Source: a virus
Lineage: Duplodnaviria > Caudoviricetes
Virus record (IMG/VR): IMGVR_UViG_3300048819_000142
Location: 52,844 to 116,843 of that record
Length of the DNA: 64,000 nt
Reading direction: 5' to 3' (one strand)
Shown: positions 23,036 through 47,864 of the stretch, piece by piece
How positions within the stretch are numbered: the stretch's first letter is position 1
Layout: each line of letters starts with the position of its first letter
Position numbers and translations under genes: made by a program
The notes under the pieces: generated by a model
Databases searched by the model: none
What the model was told of the DNA's origin: nothing
Seen by the model: only the letters and a program-made list of their open reading frames with translations

Positions 23036-24514
23036 TCAGGCATGGGCGAGGTCCCTTGTTTCAAGCTTAAGGACGTCGGCCAAGGACAGCAGAGGCTGCT
23101 CCATGATCTCGTCCACGAGGCTGTACCGATTGGTCCTCATGGTCTCAACCATGTTGGGCAGCGAGTAGTAGTCAGCGGCGCTGGTGATCGGGAATTCATG
23201 CAGTTCCAGTCCCTCGCCGCTGCAATTGCTTGTGAGCACGTTCCGATCTCCGGGAACGTGGTAGAAGTACACAGGAACCTGACGATCAAGCATCTTCGTC
23301 AATTCCTTGTATGCTGTTGCGAATGCCGGCGGGTGGTTCTCGCCCCCGTCAGAAACGATTGCGATACCGTCCACCGCGAACTTTCGCTCAACAATGTATC
23401 GGCACCCGACACCGATAGACGTGCTGCCATTCGCCACCATTCTTGCTGTGATCTTCTGCACATCTTCAAGGGTCTTCCCAGTAACGTCAAAGTATGTGGG
23501 TGACGTATTGAAGAATACCAGGTGAACCCTTCCTTTTGCTACTCGGGCAAGCAGCGCAGAGAGCGACTTCGCTACTTCCATGGAAACTTGCATGGAGGAC
23601 GAAGCATCAGCCAGGACCAACCAGTCACCTTCAAGGGAGGTCTTGTCGAGCTTCTTTTCCTGCACAGCTCGAACCTTCTCCTTGAACTCGTCGTCGTCCA
23701 AAGCGTCTGCTGCCTGCGACAGTTTCATCACGTTCGATGTCCCAGTCGCGACTCGGCCAAGCGCTTTTTCGAGAGCGCCTCGAAGTGTTGGATCCTTGCG
23801 AATCCCAAGCTTCTCGAGCATCTTCATGTGTGAGGTAAGCTCAGCGGGAGTCATGCGGTCGATCATAGCTGCCAGGATGTTCTTGTCCTGGAGCTTTTTC
23901 CCAAGTGCGGGGGCAGCAATGAGGAACGGAATCTTCTTTGTGAGGACCGCTCCAGCTGCTTCAAGCCCGTCCATGATACTCAAGTTGGCAATGGTGTCGA
24001 ACACCGACCCTTTCGGTCGCCCTCCCTCGAATAAGACAGACTTGTTGAATTCGGCCGGCTTCACGCGGCAGAATGCATACAGTTCGTGCATGGTTCGCCT
24101 GTGCTGCACGATGGTCCTTGTCCACTTGCCTGGATTTGCCTCCATCGAGTGCAGGTATGCCTTTACCAGCTTAGGAACAGCTTGGCGACGACCTGCCATT
24201 GATTGGGTCTTGGCGAACCGGACTCCACGCAACAGGTCCCTCGGGGAGAGCAATGCCAGGTGCGCCTTGGCATTGTCCATCAAGACAGGATCGCCGTGTT
24301 CGCGGGAGATCATGCTCTCGAGGGAGATCAACGGTAGAGCAACCTTGGCGTCCCTGATCTGGCCCTTGCGTGCATTCCAAGCTACAAGGTGTGCGAAGAA
24401 TTCGGGATCTTCCCGAGCGGCTTGCCGACCGAGCGGCAAATATTCCTCAAGTTTACCGTGCGGCGATTTTGCCAGTTCTGCAAACACACTCTGCCTCGTC
24501 AGTCCCTGTTCCAT
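23036..24514 (-). CDS. Ro60/Rsr-like TROVE + vWA domain RNA-binding protein
   Basis: DPEFFAHL..W....IRD TROVE-like N-terminus, helical middle region, vWA MIDAS DASSSM...T...SDGGEN; GAGAGG RBS 6 nt before MEQGL. Confidence 0.8.
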   Translation of the reverse strand: MEQGLTRQSVFAELAKSPHGKLEEYLPLGRQAAREDPEFFAHLVAWNARKGQIRDAKVALPLISLESMISREHGDPVLMDNAKAHLALLSPRDLLRGVRFAKTQSMAGRRQAVPKLVKAYLHSMEANPGKWTRTIVQHRRTMHELYAFCRVKPAEFNKSVLFEGGRPKGSVFDTIANLSIMDGLEAAGAVLTKKIPFLIAAPALGKKLQDKNILAAMIDRMTPAELTSHMKMLEKLGIRKDPTLRGALEKALGRVATGTSNVMKLSQAADALDDDEFKEKVRAVQEKKLDKTSLEGDWLVLADASSSMQVSMEVAKSLSALLARVAKGRVHLVFFNTSPTYFDVTGKTLEDVQKITARMVANGSTSIGVGCRYIVERKFAVDGIAIVSDGGENHPPAFATAYKELTKMLDRQVPVYFYHVPGDRNVLTSNCSGEGLELHEFPITSAADYYSLPNMVETMRTNRYSLVDEIMEQPLLSLADVLKLETRDLAHA

Positions 24515-24539
24515 GATCATCCTCTCTCGTAAAATAGCA

Positions 24540-24561
24540 GCGGCCTCCGTGTGGAGGCCGC
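24540..24561 (-). terminator. Hairpin between the RNA array and the Ro60 gene
   Basis: GCGGCCTCC-ACAC-GGAGGCCGC followed by TGCTATTTT on the minus strand. Confidence 0.55.
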
Positions 24562-24570
24562 AGAAGCAAA

Positions 24571-24632
24571 TCGCGAAGTGTCGGTTAGTGCTTTCATGCA
24601 CCCAAAGCGTGTACACTAGCCAGTGTCCGCGA
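24571..24632 (-). ncRNA. Y-RNA-like unit 1 (short hairpin cargo)
   Basis: Scaffold CGG-ACAC-TGG-N6-TACAC...N6-CCG-ACACTT-CG. Confidence 0.7.
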
Positions 24633-24650
24633 AAACGCAGAAAAAATGAA

Positions 24651-24812
24651 ACGGCCCGATGTGTCGAAGTTCTAAAATTAGCTGAGCTAATCCCCCACAG
24701 ACCTCGCAAGGTCTCCCTCACGAAATCTGTGGGGGATCTTGGATTCGAACCAAGGACCATCAGCGGTGAAGCTGAGGCTCTATCCGTGTAAGAACGCCAG
24801 TAACCGGGCCGT
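24651..24812 (-). ncRNA. Y-RNA-like unit 2 carrying a tRNA circularly permuted at the D-loop
   Basis: Scaffold + GGATAGAGC, TCAGC/GCTGA arm, CTTGG-TTCGAAT-CCAAG T-arm, ATCCCCC...GGGGGAT acceptor stem, TAGCTCAG. Confidence 0.8.
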
Positions 24813-24820
24813 AAAATCAA

Positions 24821-24951
24821 CGAGCGATGTGTCGGCATACGTCACCAAACGGCCCCCGATAAGTTTGAATGGCGGGGGGCCCGGGTATGAGCCGGACTCC
24901 GGGTATCACTACCCGAATGTTTCTACGTGTATGTATTCCAGTAACCGCTCG
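24821..24951 (-). ncRNA. Y-RNA-like unit 3 carrying a degenerate permuted tRNA-like domain with internal CCA
   Basis: Scaffold + AAAC/GTTT D-stem, GNRA-capped arm, CCGG-CTCATAC-CCGG T-like arm, CCCCCC-G-CCA...GGGGG. Confidence 0.7.
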
Positions 24952-25037
24952 AACTTAAAAAGGGAGCTGGGCCGCCTCGTTGGCCGTGAGTTTGTTGCCT
25001 GAGCTCCCCGCATCGACAAATCTGTCGACGAAAACTT

Positions 25038-25161
25038 GTCCCCGAAATGTCTGCAAGCTGTTTCGCCTTACGGCGACGGCGGATTTGACCCGCAACCTTC
25101 TGATTAAGAGTCAGACGCTCTACAAGTGAGCTACGTGTAAGCTTACAAGTGTCCGGGGGAC
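25038..25161 (-). ncRNA. Y-RNA-like unit 4 carrying tRNA-Lys(CTT) D, anticodon and T arms
   Basis: Scaffold + TAGCTC-ACTTGTA-GAGC, TCTGA-CTCTTAA-TCAGA, AGGTT, GCGG-GTCAAAT-CCGC; no acceptor stem or CCA. Confidence 0.8.
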
Positions 25162-25174
25162 ACCATAATAACTT

Positions 25175-25249
25175 GATCCCGAAGAGTCGGTGTGCTATTT
25201 TTGTGCTGATAGATGGGATATCATGTAAGCACGCCAGTGTCCGGGAATC
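25175..25249 (-). ncRNA. Y-RNA-like unit 5 (short cargo)
   Basis: Scaffold CGG-ACAC-TGG-CGTGCT-TACAT...AGCACA-CCG-ACTCTT-CG. Confidence 0.7.
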
Positions 25250-25336
25250 GGAAACTTTTTCGCCGGGGGTTGCTATTGCCCGACAGCATTTCGATGTCTT
25301 GCTGAGTTGTTAAGCTCAGTTAGCTAACATATAATC

Positions 25337-25367
25337 ATTGTACAACAAGGATTGTCGGGTGTAACGG
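25337..25367 (-). promoter_or_regulatory. Phage CCG-N22-(-10) promoter upstream of the RNA array and Ro60 gene
   Basis: CCGTTACACCCGACAATCCTTGTTG-TACAAT. Confidence 0.7.
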
Positions 25368-25593
25368 ACAATTTTTCGGACAAAATCAATTCACTGTCTC
25401 GTAGCCCGGTAGACCCGGAAGACCTGCATCCCTCAAACTTGCATGCACGTTCGCCCTAACGTATGCCAAGACCTTACGTCGTTCTACCGAATCCTCAGAA
25501 GATAAAAGCAGTATGAATTCGGGAGCGCTCATGTGTAGCTCAATAACAAGGTCATCGAGCGTAGGAAGTTCAGTTGAGATATCCACCACCTTA

Positions 25594-26154
25594 TCAGAAG
25601 TCATACCGTTTCAGCATCTCCCTTTCGATGTCCTCCCAACTGTCGCAAAACCCCCTGACATACAGGGGGGTGTCTTCCTTTCGAGCCTGAACATGCCATT
25701 GCCTTCGTCGAGGTTGCCACTGGTCTGTGTTGGCTGAATGAAACAGCCCTTCTTCAGCAGCAAGCATTGCTACTGGCTTGACTATGGAGCCTTCCCAAAC
25801 TGCCCGACCGCCTACCTCAACAAACAAGTCAGCGGCTTCTGACCACTGGTGCCATGATTGGCCCGGTAAATGTTCCGTTGCGGGAGGACCAAGTCCCGCA
25901 TATTCCGGCTTAAACAAGGTGGCGAGGACGGGAGCCGTAGGCTTAAGTATCCGTCGCCGCTTGTCGACTTCTTCCTCAGACCTCGATCTGCACCATAGGC
26001 GAGCCTGAGACTCAGGTCCTCGAACTGTGGGTCCTACCCTAAGCTCGATTCCTCGAGGTTTTGCCCGCTCGAGCAGCCGGATCAGTTTTTGCTGGAACGC
26101 TGATTCCAACAGATCCAGACTTTTCGATTCCAACGACTTGTCCAGCAGCATCAT
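25594..26154 (-). CDS. Peptidase M15-like (L-Ala-D-Glu peptidase / endolysin-like)
   Basis: R....Q..L, SWHQW..AAD, WHVQ Zn-binding pattern. Confidence 0.65.
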   Translation of the reverse strand: MMLLDKSLESKSLDLLESAFQQKLIRLLERAKPRGIELRVGPTVRGPESQARLWCRSRSEEEVDKRRRILKPTAPVLATLFKPEYAGLGPPATEHLPGQSWHQWSEAADLFVEVGGRAVWEGSIVKPVAMLAAEEGLFHSANTDQWQPRRRQWHVQARKEDTPLYVRGFCDSWEDIEREMLKRYDF

Positions 26155-26398
26155 CAAGCAGCAGCCTTTGGCTTTTTGCAAAGCCTTTAAGGATGTCCTC
26201 CACCTTCGGCGAGATCTCATCCCATTCGAACATCTGTCCCTTCGTAATAAGGAGAAGATACGGCATGACGTGCACTTGAGTCACGCCGCGAATCTCCAGC
26301 ATAAGTAATCCGAATTCTCCCAATTCGTACCGAGTGTGGTAGGCCTTGACGTTGGGATCCTGAGTCGGTTGTACCGATATTTCTGCTACAGTGGGCAC
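26039..26398 (-). CDS. Nfu/NifU N-terminal scaffold-like domain protein
   Basis: QPT.DPN...Y, I.GV..V......ITK....W.EI...V. Confidence 0.55.
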   Translation of the reverse strand: MPTVAEISVQPTQDPNVKAYHTRYELGEFGLLMLEIRGVTQVHVMPYLLLITKGQMFEWDEISPKVEDILKGFAKSQRLLLDDAAGQVVGIEKSGSVGISVPAKTDPAARAGKTSRNRA

Positions 26399-26416
26399 AC
26401 AGTCCCTCCTAAGACT

Positions 26417-26447
26417 ATAATACTACAGATTTTTAATGTCCACTCGG
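26417..26447 (-). promoter_or_regulatory. Phage CCG-N22-(-10) promoter
   Basis: CCGAGTGGACATTAAAAATCTGTAG-TATTAT. Confidence 0.65.
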
Positions 26448-26658
26448 CAAAATTACTTCCAAGTTTCGGAGTATTTGGACAAGGCGTCAACTCGAGCAAT
26501 CACTCTCTCTGACGCCTTGTGCATTTCTTCTGCCAAGGAGGCCATTCGCGATTCATCTCTCGTCATTCTCGCGATACCCATGGTGTGGTTCAACCCGTCA
26601 AAATGGTTGAGTTCCTGGTTAATGTCGCTGATGAGGCCACGAATTGAGGAGGAGTTGA

Positions 26659-47271: not shown

Positions 47272-47765
47272 ACTCCCCAGCCTTTCTGTTGCCAGGACTC
47301 GCCTGTCGGCGAGTGGCCGGGATACCCCGCTGTCCGCTGCTTATTAGGCTGCGGCTGCCATGGCGAAGGCCGGAGCCTGCGCCCTGACGGGCATGACTAC
47401 AAGATTGCTCTTGGCGTCTTTTGTTCACGCTGTTTGGGCCTCGAAGTCGAGCTATATCTCGCAAGCGAGCACGAACTCAACAACACTCAGCCTCGGTAGT
47501 CGTCTACCGCTTGTCTCCACAGTCATTTTCAGCCCCGTCGAAACCGTTCGCCCCCATAAGAAAAGTTATGGTGGAGGCGCCGGCATCCGAGAGCCGGGTC
47601 CGCAACTGATATTTTCTGCTTCAACGACAAGATCAATCTTTTTCTTCGCTCGATAGTCCTGCATAAGACTTGAGTGCGCTGTTCCCTGGACCACTACCCA
47701 GGGATATGAAGGTTCGGAGTTGTCTTTTGCAGACTTGCACTGTTCCGAACCACCCGCCGGGGAAC
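47272..47765 (-). ncRNA. ssrA: Circularly permuted (two-piece) tmRNA; tag (A)AKSNLVVMPVRAQAPAFAMAAAA
   Basis: Acceptor piece ends ...GCCGGCGCCTCCACCA at 47569; 13-nt spacer; coding piece starts GGGGGCGAACGGTTTCGAC at 47555; G3-U70 pair; P2 pairing GACAAG/CTTGTC; tag ORF 47415-47341 ends AAAA then TAA TAA; outer ends approximate. Confidence 0.9.
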
Positions 47766-47787: not shown

Positions 47788-47864
47788 TGGTTGTCCCGGC
47801 CAGACTCGAACTGGCGACCTCTTGCTTAGGAGGCGAGCGCTCTATCCAGCTGAGCTACGGGACA
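47788..47864 (-). tRNA. tRNA-Arg (CCT)
   Basis: TGTCCCG/CGGGACA acceptor stem, GCTC/GAGC D-arm, CTCCTAA anticodon loop, TTCGAGT T-loop, encoded CCA. Confidence 0.92.

What the first reader, a model, noticed from the sequence alone, without database searches (positions are those of the whole stretch)
24651..24812. A near-complete tRNA circularly permuted at the D-loop inside array unit 2
Seen (minus strand, 5'->3'): GGATA-GAGC (3' half of D arm), TCAGC-TTCACC-GCTGA (anticodon-like arm, 6-nt loop, UCA or CAC reading ambiguous), TGGTC, CTTGG-TTCGAAT-CCAAG (perfect T arm), ATCCCCC-A (acceptor 3' strand), a ~30-nt linker that extends the stem (ACAGA/TCTGT plus a GACCT/AGGTC hairpin), then GGGGGAT-TA-GCTC-AG (acceptor 5' strand and 5' half of D arm). 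Established: permuted tRNA genes are known from some algae and archaea. Inference: either a non-chargeable tRNA mimic, or a precursor that RNase P and a 3' nuclease could open into a two-piece, chargeable tRNA tethered to Ro.
Basis: partly seen in the sequence, partly recalled or inferred. Interest (0 to 1): 0.8.

Follow-up and report, generated by a model that had tools for sequence, protein, structure and literature searches.

The report
D-loop-split tRNA mimic on phage Y RNA
Upstream of a phage Ro60 gene lies a small RNA carrying a whole tRNA body wired back to front and opened in its D loop; this wiring of the known bacterial "Y RNA" tRNA mimics recurs in other phages and four bacterial phyla and was not described in the papers I could read.

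Summary
On the minus strand, 24785-24730 reads as tRNA nucleotides 18-73 and 24696-24680 as nucleotides 1-17. They are joined through a closed acceptor helix, and nothing is lost or duplicated at the 17/18 break. The two outer ends run into a long helix with the same layout as four neighbouring units, 137 nt upstream of a gene whose predicted fold is Ro60.

It is best read as a YrlA-class Y RNA, a Ro60-bound tRNA mimic. Published YrlA is also a permuted tRNA with a closed acceptor, but it opens at the anticodon stem and keeps a closed D arm. Here the D arm is split and the anticodon-like arm is closed.

I found 22 further D-split units in phages and in Alpha- and Betaproteobacteria, Acidobacteriota and Planctomycetota, often in tandem with canonical YrlA beside Ro60 or RtcB genes. 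Across 23 sequences, 98.8% of cloverleaf pair cells are paired. Rfam's YrlA model scores them below threshold.

The closest relative has lost both D halves. Most members have only 4-6 bp closed acceptors, so a chargeable two-piece tRNA is not a family trait. Peat metatranscriptome contigs cover the unit.

This scan has reported other rewired YrlA variants on other DNA, none shown with this break.

The parts
24803..24812 (-). Outer Y helix, 5' strand (ACGGCCCGGU)
   Evidence: Pairs with 24660-24651 in the minimum-energy fold. The equivalent helix covaries in relatives: CCCGG/UCGGG here against GGCGG/CCGCC in L182, L177 and L001 (alignment A4).
24786..24802 (-). Internal loop, inner Y helix 5' strand (GUUCU) and conserved CUUACAC motif
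   Evidence: Direct-repeat family shared by the five array units. GUUCU pairs with AGAAC at 24673-24669. By layout, CUUACAC appears to correspond to the conserved CUAc/YUAY of Rfam YrlA and Chen 2014.
24781..24785 (-). D-loop 3' part, GGAUA (tRNA nt 18-21)
   Evidence: Sequence. GG(A/U)UA is kept in 22 of the 23 aligned D-split units; L122 reads GGUA.
24777..24780 (-). D-stem 3' strand, GAGC (nt 22-25), followed by C26 at 24776
   Evidence: Complementary to GCUC at 24687-24684. This stem is 100% paired in 23 sequences, with one compensatory A-U in L122.
24760..24775 (-). Closed anticodon-like arm, 5 bp with 6-nt loop UUCACC
   Evidence: The stem covaries: 4 of 5 pairs show changes on both sides. 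L182 has the same loop and L001 has UUUGCC.
24755..24759 (-). Variable region UGGUC (nt 44-48)
   Evidence: Sequence. The final C could form the G15:C48 Levitt pair. This C is kept in the five sequences of alignment A7.
24738..24754 (-). T arm CUUGG-UUCGAAU-CCAAG
   Evidence: The stem covaries in relatives.
24730..24737 (-). Acceptor 3' strand AUCCCCC plus A73
   Evidence: Pairs with 24696-24690.
24697..24729 (-). Linker that continues the acceptor helix to 22 bp, capped by GAGA
   Evidence: The helix is kept with compensatory changes in the L001 orthologue.
24690..24696 (-). Acceptor 5' strand GGGGGAU (nt 1-7)
24680..24689 (-). U8 A9, D-stem 5' strand GCUC, and D-loop 5' part AGCU (nt 8-17)
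   Evidence: UAGCUCAG follows the closed acceptor in 22 of the 23 D-split units; L122 has UAGCUUAG, the compensatory form.
24661..24679 (-). Linker AAUUUU, inner Y helix 3' strand AGAAC, and conserved CGACACAU-type motif
   Evidence: repeat family D4, CGAYGTGTCG on the plus strand.
24651..24660 (-). Outer Y helix, 3' strand (AUCGGGCCGU)
24641..24651 (-). U-rich tract UUUCAUUUUUU after the closing helix
   Evidence: Sequence. RNA contigs of two metatranscriptome runs both stop at 24656 while a DNA contig continues. This is only a weak hint of a 3' end.
23036..24514 (-). Divergent Ro60 (TROVE + vWA) gene, 492 aa
   Evidence: AlphaFold2 model, pLDDT 84. The top 12 Foldseek PDB hits are all Ro60/TROVE, including D. 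radiodurans Rsr (TM 0.65) and Thermus phage phiLo Ro60. A 22-sequence profile hits a TROVE chain at E = 0.008. Pfam finds only a weak vWA match.
24571..25249 (-). The whole array of five Y-like units (context)
   Evidence: Repeat families, Rfam tRNA hit inside the unit at 25076-25136, and RNA contigs over 24656-25415.

Best explanation
This is a phage Y RNA of the YrlA kind: a small non-coding RNA whose paired ends form the docking helix for the phage's own Ro60 protein, and whose middle folds like a tRNA.

The tRNA body is complete: acceptor, D stem, anticodon-like arm, 5-nt variable region and T arm. It is circularly permuted. The natural tRNA ends are sealed by a hairpin, and the chain is opened between D-loop nucleotides 17 and 18. 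The Ro60-docking helix leaves from that opening through 5-6 nt linkers.

Shown here:
- the sequence anatomy;
- the near-isoenergetic cloverleaf;
- conservation and covariation of this wiring in 23 sequences;
- the Ro60 fold of the neighbouring gene;
- presence of the unit in RNA libraries.

Inferred:
- Ro60 binds the outer helix;
- G18/G19 still dock on the T loop to give an L shape;
- the module recruits or distracts a tRNA-binding host factor, by analogy with YrlA, Yrn1 and the phage phiLo Ro60-Yrl-PNPase complex;
- it stays closed and is not aminoacylated.
For: Anatomy and exact 17/18 break.

Fold: z = -7.7 against shuffles, and the D-stem fold lies within 1.3 kcal/mol of the minimum.

Neighbouring ORF has the Ro60 fold.

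The unit shares helix and motif layout with four neighbouring units.

The same wiring was found without requiring the 3'-lying D half.
- Viral contigs L177 and L182. L182 has a Ro60-like gene on the same strand about 3.9 kb downstream, E = 4e-191.
- 20 bacterial loci with the published GNCGAANG-type (or GAUGAAUG variant) Y motif, all carrying UAGCUCAG after a closed mini-acceptor.
- L122, reached only through the Ro60 protein, has a compensatory D stem, GCUU/AAGC.

Covariation:
- 5-sequence core: 98.9% paired, 11 of 19 pairs changed on both sides, 0 of 500 shuffles as high.
- 23 sequences: 98.8% paired.

The bacterial units sit in tandem with canonical YrlA (Rfam 55-76 bits), beside RtcB or TROVE genes.

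RNA libraries: identical 760-nt contigs at 24656-25415 in two peat metatranscriptomes, at 26.5 and 6.9 depth, against 4.5 and 0 on the Ro60 gene.

Literature:
- YrlA as a permuted tRNA mimic with closed acceptor: PMC4201824; 10.1101/312249.
- Phage Ro60 with upstream Y-like RNAs and host PNPase: PMC12135203.
Against: - The closest orthologue (L001, Ro60 62% identical) keeps the T arm, the long acceptor helix and the 6-nt-loop hairpin, but has lost both GAGC and AGCUCAG. The D stem is therefore dispensable in at least one lineage.
- In the nearest-neighbour ensemble the D stem has only about 5% probability; a local UAGC/GCUA hairpin competes with it.
- The D stem is almost invariant, so covariation for that helix rests on a single sequence. 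The 5'-lying half was fixed by my search pattern in 20-odd of the relatives.
- Rfam's YrlA model does not hit this unit even at E <= 10, and the published GNCGAAN0-1G Ro motif is absent from the phage units.
- No binding, end-mapping or modification data exist. The RNA evidence is assembled contigs, which cannot show ends, strand or processing.
Confidence: 0.7

Rival explanations
1. The unit is a precursor of a two-piece tRNA. The sealed acceptor helix is opened (RNase III in the 22-bp helix and/or RNase P before G1 at 24696, then 3' trimming to A73 and CCA addition). This leaves a nicked, possibly aminoacylated tRNA still held on Ro60 by the Y helix.
For: - This unit has a full 7-bp acceptor plus A73.
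- The 22-bp extension is conserved with compensatory changes in L001. It is about the length that RNase III accepts; that is general knowledge and was not tested.
- M. smegmatis YrlA, with a 7-bp acceptor, is cut by RNase P in vitro, and in vivo is cleaved and receives CCA (PMC4201824).
Against: - The anticodon loop has 6 nt, here and in L182 and L001.
- 18 or more family members have 4-6 bp acceptors closed by tetraloops or GUAAU and cannot yield a 7-bp acceptor.
- A73 is paired with the -1 nucleotide in an unbroken helix.
- RNA contigs in two runs cross the linker, and no joints were reported. Contigs would, however, miss a processed minority.
Confidence: 0.12
2. The unit is an evolutionary relic. 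Two tandem tRNA copies were trapped between Y-helix arms, and the D halves are left-over sequence with no role of their own. Only the T arm, the acceptor hairpin and the Y helix would matter.
For: - The nearest relative has lost both D halves while keeping everything else.
- Tandem duplication followed by loss of the outer parts is the accepted origin model for permuted RNA genes (PMC3978253).
- The neighbouring unit at 24820-24952 looks like a decayed copy: R1 34.5 bits, fold z only -1.8.
Against: - Both halves are kept letter for letter in units whose other three stems have diverged and covary, across phages and four bacterial phyla.
- The break is exact, with no loss and no overlap.
- The tertiary-contact nucleotides U8, A14, G15, G18, G19, A21 and C48 are all in place.
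Confidence: 0.08
3. The RNA does not form a split D stem at all. It adopts the computed minimum-energy fold: a four-way junction with a small UAGC-UCA-GCUA hairpin after the acceptor and an unpaired GGAUAGAGC. That would make it a looser YrlA-like RNA without a D arm.
For: The minimum-energy and centroid structures choose this fold. D-stem pair probability is about 0.05.
Against: - The energy gap is 1.3 kcal/mol, within the error of the model, which ignores tertiary contacts.
- The competing hairpin depends on CUAA after AG. That sequence is not conserved: relatives read AGUG, AGUA, AGCG or AGAA.
- GAGC and GCUC are conserved.
Confidence: 0.06
4. The module acts without Ro60. It could be a free decoy for host tRNA-targeting enzymes (anticodon nucleases, modification enzymes), or a processing or termination signal for the array transcript. 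Ro60 adjacency would then be incidental.
For: - The closed anticodon-like arm and the acceptor helix point away from the Y helix in this wiring (inference from topology).
- A U tract follows the closing helix, and RNA contigs stop there.
- Notes from this scan report YrlA-like mimics with other partner proteins on other DNA; I did not check them.
Against: - The unit shares its outer helix and motifs with all the other units of Ro60-linked arrays in about 25 related loci.
- Bacterial counterparts carry the published Ro60-contact motif.
- Anticodon-like loops vary freely in size and sequence, 4-9 nt. That argues against mimicry of one particular tRNA.
Confidence: 0.04

Closest known systems
YrlA (Y RNA-like A; Rfam RF02553; Chen et al. 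2014, PMC4201824; structure in Wang et al. 2018, bioRxiv 10.1101/312249)
   Same: - A Ro60-linked small RNA encoded next to the Ro60 gene on the same strand.
- Paired 5'/3' ends, followed by a conserved YUAY-type motif.
- A tRNA-like core with a T arm and an acceptor stem sealed by a loop.
- The same D-arm letters: UAGCUCA...GGUAGAGC in the Rfam consensus.
- YrlA is already described as resembling a circularly permuted tRNA.
- Bacterial D-split units share the GGCGAAUGC...CUAC module with canonical YrlA copies in the same array.
   Different: - Canonical YrlA opens at the anticodon stem, which leads to the Ro60 module. It has no anticodon loop and keeps a closed D stem-loop 3' of the acceptor.
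- Here the D arm is the split element: its 3' half lies at the 5' side of the RNA and its 5' half at the 3' side. The anticodon-like arm is a closed hairpin.
- The Rfam model gives 33-44 bits for bacterial D-split units, below its threshold of 69, and nothing for the window unit.
- The phage units lack the GNCGAAN0-1G motif.
Deinococcus radiodurans Yrn1 as modelled by Chen et al. 2014 (Fig. 2E, described in text)
   Same: - Text description: D-loop features, then a 5-bp 'anticodon arm' with a 6-nt loop, then the T arm.
- This is the orientation opposite to YrlA.
- It is the same order and the same odd loop size as here.
   Different: - Yrn1 is said to lack a full D arm and a variable arm.
- No sealed acceptor stem between T and D elements is described in the text I could read.
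- I could not see the figure, so the comparison rests on text only.
Circularly permuted tRNA genes of Cyanidioschyzon merolae and some archaea (Soma 2014, PMC3978253)
   Same: - The 3' part of the tRNA is encoded upstream of the 5' part, with the acceptor ends joined by a linker.
- One algal class has its junction in the D loop, at 20/21.
   Different: - Those genes give ordinary decoding tRNAs, after a bulge-helix-bulge cut by the splicing endonuclease, circularisation, and RNase P/Z processing.
- Here the setting is a bacteriophage.
- The open ends form a Ro60-type helix rather than an intron-like junction.
- The anticodon loop has 6 nt.
Thermus phage phiLo Ro60 with Yrl1/Yrl2 (PMC12135203)
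   Same: - A phage Ro60 gene with Y-like RNAs encoded directly upstream.
- The phiLo Ro60 structure is among the top structural matches to the window protein.
   Different: - Yrl1 and Yrl2 are described as stem-bulge-stem RNAs with a CGAA motif.
- No tRNA-like module is reported for them.

Membership tests
YrlA (Chen 2014 / Rfam RF02553) | Encoded within about 4 kb of a Ro60 (TROVE) gene on the same strand | tested here: met
   The unit ends at 24651 and the ORF starts at 24514 on the same strand. The ORF's predicted fold matches Ro60.
YrlA (Chen 2014 / Rfam RF02553) | GNCGAAN0-1G motif near the 5' end | tested here: not met
   The window unit reads CGGUUACUGGCG at that place. The motif, or a GAUGAAUG variant, is present in the 20 bacterial D-split units.
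YrlA (Chen 2014 / Rfam RF02553) | tRNA-like T stem-loop | tested here: met
   CUUGG-UUCGAAU-CCAAG at 24754-24738; covaries in relatives.
YrlA (Chen 2014 / Rfam RF02553) | Acceptor-like stem closed by a loop, directly 3' of the T arm | tested here: met
   22-bp closed helix at 24737-24690. It is 4-8 bp in relatives.
YrlA (Chen 2014 / Rfam RF02553) | Closed D stem-loop 3' of the acceptor stem, with the anticodon stem open towards the Ro60 module | tested here: not met
   After UA-GCUC-AGCU comes the linker to the Y helix. The matching GAGC lies about 90 nt upstream, and the anticodon-like arm is closed. Compare the Rfam consensus.
YrlA (Chen 2014 / Rfam RF02553) | Rfam gathering score (69 bits) | tested here: not met
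   No YrlA match in 24000-26500 at E <= 10. Bacterial D-split units score 33.8-44.2 bits.
YrlA (Chen 2014 / Rfam RF02553) | Bound by Ro60/Rsr; modified by TruB and DusA | not testable with these tools
   Needs immunoprecipitation and modification mapping.
Circularly permuted tRNA genes (algae, archaea) | 3' part upstream of 5' part, with acceptor ends joined by an intervening sequence | tested here: met
   Nucleotides 18-73 at 24785-24730, nucleotides 1-17 at 24696-24680, linker at 24729-24697.
Circularly permuted tRNA genes (algae, archaea) | Bulge-helix-bulge motif at the junction, processed by a splicing endonuclease | not tested
   I ran no bulge-helix-bulge scan. By eye, the open ends form a long interrupted helix shared with the non-tRNA units of the array.
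Circularly permuted tRNA genes (algae, archaea) | The product is a decoding tRNA with a 7-nt anticodon loop | tested here: not met
   The loop is 6 nt, UUCACC. Loops of 4-9 nt occur in relatives.
tRNA (Rfam RF00005 / ARAGORN) | Recognised as a tRNA in native order | tested here: not met
   No ARAGORN or Rfam tRNA call at this unit. The re-permuted form is called by ARAGORN, but that call is unspecific for the D arm. It is 78-81% identical to many different real tRNAs, with no preferred identity.
Yrn1-type Y RNA (D. radiodurans) | D-loop features, then a 5-bp arm with a 6-nt loop, then the T arm, in that order | tested here: met
   GGAUA / UCAGC-UUCACC-GCUGA / T arm.
Yrn1-type Y RNA (D. radiodurans) | Metazoan-like Ro60-binding helix conserved on both strands; tethers PNPase | not tested
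   No Yrn1 sequence was at hand to compare, and binding is not testable here.

The most novel reading that the evidence does not exclude
D-loop-split Y RNAs are a separate functional class and not just a rewired YrlA.

Attaching Ro60 at the tRNA elbow turns the anticodon-like arm and the acceptor helix outward. The Ro60 particle would then present a different face of the tRNA than canonical YrlA does.

In this phage, with its 7-bp acceptor, A73 and 22-bp processing-competent helix, the RNA could be opened to a CCA-tailed two-piece tRNA riding on Ro60. Alternatively, it could serve as bait for host anticodon- or acceptor-directed defence nucleases.

Phage arrays would then be panels of tRNA mimics displayed in several orientations.
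Probability: 0.15. Interest if true: 0.85.

Novelty: new variant of a known kind. Interest (0 to 1): 0.6.

Why it matters
Y RNAs are the obligate partners of Ro60, from bacteria to humans. The bacterial YrlA type is the best-studied tRNA mimic among them, yet the factor that reads its tRNA-like domain is still unknown.

A second, conserved way of wiring the same tRNA body to the Ro60 helix often sits in the same operon as the canonical form. It gives a natural experiment.

- Both wirings keep the D/T elbow letters.
- They free different ends: the anticodon arm is free here and blocked in YrlA.
- That difference constrains which surface the unknown partner needs.

The finding also exposes an annotation gap. 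Current Rfam thresholds miss these units in Sphingomonas, Collimonas, Massilia, Acidobacteriota and Planctomycetota genomes, and in a clade of phages whose Ro60 escapes Pfam.

Finally, it gives a bacterial-world example of a D-loop permutation of a tRNA. In the papers I read, that was reported only for an algal permuted tRNA gene.

Tried and rejected
- **ARAGORN on the re-permuted sequence as proof of the D arm.** Rejected. Random D nucleotides are still called tRNA in 34-71% of trials.
- **"tRNA-Val-like" identity.** This was my recollection of E. coli tRNA-Val. It was not borne out. The re-permuted 73-mer is 78-81% identical to Asp, Phe, Met, Asn and other tRNAs alike.
- **BLAST of the array against GenBank phages.** No match.
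- **nhmmer with the window-plus-L001 pair.** It found no further full-length relatives among the Ro60-linked loci.
- **Pattern CTTGGTTCGANTCCAAGANCCCC in viral contigs.** Only ordinary phage tRNAs besides L001.
- **First loose pattern, TTACACGGA...GGTTCGA.** I did not inspect them and took nothing from them except the L001 contig.
- **Pattern requiring both D halves.** Mostly tandem tRNA genes. Only L286 was new, and it is biased by construction.
- **Sequence-level recognition of the Ro60 gene.** Pfam TROVE, NCBIfam and phmmer against PDB all failed. Only a 22-sequence profile (E = 0.008) and the fold search worked.
The fold is weak (z = -1.8) and the alignment to this unit is poor, so I do not count it.
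- **L117 and L168 units with 3-bp GCA/UGC closing helices.** These are too short, and they overlap the conserved ACAUGC motif, so they are not counted as support.
- **RNA cover.** Nothing was laid on 24464-24639 (unit E and the Ro60 5' end) in the RNA runs.
- **Literature I could not read.** Two reviews were not held (PMC10870794, PMC6047535). The supplement of Chen 2014 is not held either. I cannot exclude that a D-split example is drawn in one of these.
Full report
**1. What is in the sequence**

Read on the minus strand, the stretch 24812-24651 has the following parts.

- Outer helix strand: ACGGCCCGGU.
- Interrupted inner helix, then the motif CUUACAC.
- GGAUA-GAGC-C.
- A 5-bp hairpin with loop UUCACC.
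- UGGUC.
- A perfect T arm: CUUGG-UUCGAAU-CCAAG.
- AUCCCCC-A.
- A 33-nt linker.
- GGGGGAU-UA-GCUC-AGCU.
- Linker AAUUUU, then the returning strands of the two helices, then a U-rich tract.

In tRNA numbering the upstream block is nucleotides 18-73 and the downstream block is nucleotides 1-17. Rejoined, they give a complete D arm, GCUC-AGCUGGAUA-GAGC, with no nucleotide lost or repeated. The break therefore lies exactly between 17 and 18.

- U8, A14, G15, G18, G19, A21 and C48 are all in place.
- Acceptor plus linker form one unbroken 22-bp helix capped by GAGA.
- The 176-nt region folds at -82.4 kcal/mol, z = -7.7.
- The fold with the split D stem enforced is only 1.3 kcal/mol above the unconstrained minimum, although its ensemble probability is about 5%.
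- ARAGORN and Rfam see no tRNA in the native order.

**2. A control that failed, and what replaced it**

ARAGORN calls the re-permuted sequence a tRNA with a 6-nt anticodon loop. It does the same for 34-71% of versions whose 15 D-arm nucleotides were shuffled or randomised. That call is carried by the T arm, the acceptor and the hairpin, and says nothing about the D halves.

The re-permuted 73-mer is 78-81% identical to real tRNAs of many identities. It is a generic elongator-like body. My recollected likeness to tRNA-Val was not supported.

**3. Context**

The window belongs to a 116.8-kb IMG/VR virus record.

The unit is the fourth of five tandem units that share a 5' repeat (GGAYACUGG..CUUACAY) and a 3' repeat (CGACAYNUCG). 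One of the other units contains an unpermuted tRNA body that Rfam scores at 43 bits.

The array ends 137 nt upstream of a 492-aa ORF. Pfam sees only a weak vWA domain in it. Its AlphaFold2 model (pLDDT 84) has Ro60 structures as its 12 best PDB matches. These include Xenopus and human Ro60, D. radiodurans Rsr (TM 0.65) and the Ro60 of Thermus phage phiLo. A 22-sequence profile reaches a TROVE chain at E = 0.008. The neighbour is therefore a divergent Ro60.

**4. What is already known**

Chen et al. 2014 (PMC4201824) defined YrlA RNAs.

- They lie next to Ro60 genes in more than 250 bacteria and phages.
- Near the 5' end they carry a GNCGAAN0-1G motif.
- Their layout is V region, closed T stem-loop, closed acceptor-like stem-loop, closed D stem-loop.
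- The paired ends take the place of the anticodon stem.

Wang et al. 2018 (10.1101/312249) solved the domain. [quoted passage not shown]

M. smegmatis YrlA has a 7-bp acceptor. It is cut by RNase P in vitro, and in vivo it is cleaved and receives CCA.

D. radiodurans Yrn1 is modelled in the other orientation: D-loop features, then a 5-bp arm with a 6-nt loop, then the T arm.

Permutation, a sealed acceptor, Ro60 linkage and even RNase P opening are therefore all known for this family. In the text I could read, the place of the opening seen here is not described.

**5. Relatives: the nearest one disagrees**

Ro60-based searches gave about 50 related loci. Arrays of two to six tRNA-like units upstream of Ro60 are the rule there, with several different wirings.

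The only clear orthologue of this unit is in L001 (Ro60 62% identical). It keeps four things:
- the T arm;
- the 7-bp acceptor;
- the long extension, with compensatory changes;
- a hairpin with a 6-nt loop (UUUGCC) on a fully different, covarying stem.

It lacks both GAGC and AGCUCAG.

**6. Relatives: the wider family agrees**

I scanned for a pattern that required only the UACAYG motif, the 5'-lying half (GGNUAGAGC) and GGUUC.

- In viral contigs it found two Y-context hits, L177 and L182. Both have UAGCUCAG directly after a sealed 5-6 bp acceptor. L182 has the identical UUCACC loop on a covarying stem, and a Ro60-like gene on the same strand about 3.9 kb downstream, E = 4e-191.
- In bacterial genomes the same pattern found 105 places. 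Twenty carry a Y motif about 20 nt upstream, either the published GNCGAANG type (GGCGAAUG) or a GAUGAAUG variant. All 20 have UAGCUCAG after a sealed 4-8 bp mini-acceptor.
- Their records name Sphingomonas, Sphingomonadales, Allosphingosinicella, Methylopila, Collimonas, Massilia, Oxalobacteraceae, Blastocatellia/Pyrinomonadaceae, Thermoguttaceae and Phycisphaeraceae.
- L122 was reached only through its Ro60 protein. It has the same wiring with D stem GCUU/AAGC, a compensatory change.
- L286 came from a pattern that fixed both halves, so it is not independent evidence.

**7. Pair counts**

On a 5-sequence core alignment made by MAFFT (A7):
- 98.9% of pair cells are standard pairs;
- 11 of 19 pairs show changes on both sides;
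- none of 500 shuffles reaches the observed covariation;
- sliding the partners drops pairing to 30-48%.

On 23 sequences aligned to covariance model R1, 98.8% of cells pair. That alignment is fitted to the model's structure and so leans towards it. The anticodon-like, T and acceptor stems vary freely. The D stem is G-C/A-U/G-C/C-G in 22 sequences and has one A-U in L122.

The D stem's near-invariance parallels canonical YrlA, where D and T stem sequences are "nearly invariant". It means direct covariation for that helix rests on one sequence. The stronger argument is the co-occurrence of the two halves when only one was required.

**8. Relation to canonical YrlA in the same operons**

In Sphingomonas sp. 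Leaf407 (L327), five YrlA-like units lie in tandem directly upstream of RtcB.

- Canonical copies score 59.5 and 73.1 bits on Rfam YrlA, whose threshold is 69.
- The D-split copy carries the same GGCGAAUGC...GGGACUAC module but scores 33.8 bits, because the model's T and D elements cannot be placed.
- Other D-split units score 34-44 bits.

TROVE genes lie 1-2.3 kb from the units in three of five bacterial genomes tested.

The Rfam consensus D arm, GCUCAauuuGGUAGAGC, uses the same letters that are split here. By layout, the phage motif CUUACAY appears to correspond to the conserved CUAc/YUAY.

**9. Expression**

Two peat metatranscriptome runs filed under different studies each hold an identical 760-nt contig covering 24656-25415. 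Their depths are 26.5 and 6.9. The Ro60 gene is at 4.5 in one run and absent in the other. A third run covers 24843-25336. A DNA run spans everything.

The contigs cross the acceptor linker and show no joints. They stop at 24656, five nucleotides inside the closing helix's 3' strand (24660-24651), which runs into the U tract at 24651-24641.

Contigs cannot show ends, strand or minor processed forms. This is evidence of presence in RNA libraries, and a weak hint of a 3' end.

**10. Mechanism**

Most likely (0.7): a Ro60-bound, closed, non-chargeable tRNA mimic of the YrlA kind, in which the Ro60 helix leaves from D-loop positions 17/18.

Those positions belong to the variable, solvent-exposed part of the D loop in tRNA structures. 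That is general knowledge and was not tested here. With 5-6 nt linkers on each side, the elbow contacts G18-U55 and G19-C56 could still form.

Compared with YrlA, this wiring frees the anticodon-like arm and places Ro60 beside the elbow.

What the module recruits is unknown, as it is for YrlA itself. PNPase is the precedent (Yrn1; phage phiLo Yrl RNAs, PMC12135203).

The two-piece-tRNA idea (0.12) fits this particular unit's 7-bp acceptor, A73 and conserved long helix, and has the M. smegmatis precedent. It is contradicted by the 6-nt loop and by the short sealed acceptors of most family members.

**11. Novelty and limits**

I file this as a new variant of a known kind. It fails three YrlA membership features: the closed D arm, the Rfam score and, for the phage units, the 5' motif. 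It works like a YrlA.

I found no description of a D-loop opening in the papers I could read.
- I could not open two reviews or the supplement of Chen 2014.

Earlier notes of this scan report the same array on this genome, and other rewired YrlA variants on other DNA. None of the entries shown has this break.

Noticed in passing
window 47344-47632 (-) and 47788-47864 (-): The same phage carries a two-piece (circularly permuted) tmRNA gene (Rfam RF04321, 72.4 bits, above its threshold of 47), next to a tRNA-Arg(CCU). This is a second permuted tRNA-like RNA in one virus. The whole 116.8-kb record has only two ordinary tRNAs, Met and Arg.
   Followed up: no
window 25038-25161 (-), core 25076-25136: A neighbouring array unit holds an unpermuted tRNA body (Rfam tRNA 43.3 bits, model positions 5-66; loop CUCUUAA). 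Its acceptor end runs into the shared Y helix, which is a third way of attaching the helix.
   Followed up: partly
window 25175-25249 (-) versus L001 2426-2552: The first unit of the window's array is a short RNA with no tRNA part. The equivalent unit in the related phage L001 encloses a full tRNA (Rfam 57.2 bits, model 1-71). The cargo inside a constant helix has been swapped or deleted between relatives.
   Followed up: no
L115 2021-2160, L125 2229-2340, L129 2127-2260, L166 300-420, L168 2340-2450: Related Ro60 arrays contain yet another wiring: Y helix, T arm, sealed acceptor, closed D arm, closed anticodon arm with a 7-nt loop (often CAU), Y helix. These units are opened between the anticodon arm and the variable region.
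   Followed up: partly
window 24540-24561 (-): A strong terminator-like hairpin (9 pairs, 8 of them G-C, followed by a U-rich tail) lies between the last array unit and the Ro60 start codon. It suggests that Ro60 expression depends on read-through or regulation.
   Followed up: no
window 24820-24952 (-): The unit just upstream shares the GGUUACUGG variant of the 5' repeat with the studied unit. It may be a decayed duplicate: T-like arm with loop CUCAUAC, sealed G/C acceptor, possible AAAC/GUUU closing helix. Its fold is weak, z = -1.8.
   Followed up: partly
L327 726-1769 (Sphingomonas sp. Leaf407), L404 5298-5799, L391 701-1290: Bacterial chromosomes carry tandem arrays of three to five YrlA-like RNAs of mixed wiring. 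Only some of them pass Rfam's threshold. The L327 array abuts RtcB.
   Followed up: partly
window 23036-24514 (-) and about 25 related loci: This Ro60 clade is invisible to Pfam TROVE, NCBIfam and single-sequence PDB searches. It is recognisable only by profile or by fold, so Ro60-linked RNAs in such phages will be missed by surveys keyed on TROVE annotation.
   Followed up: yes
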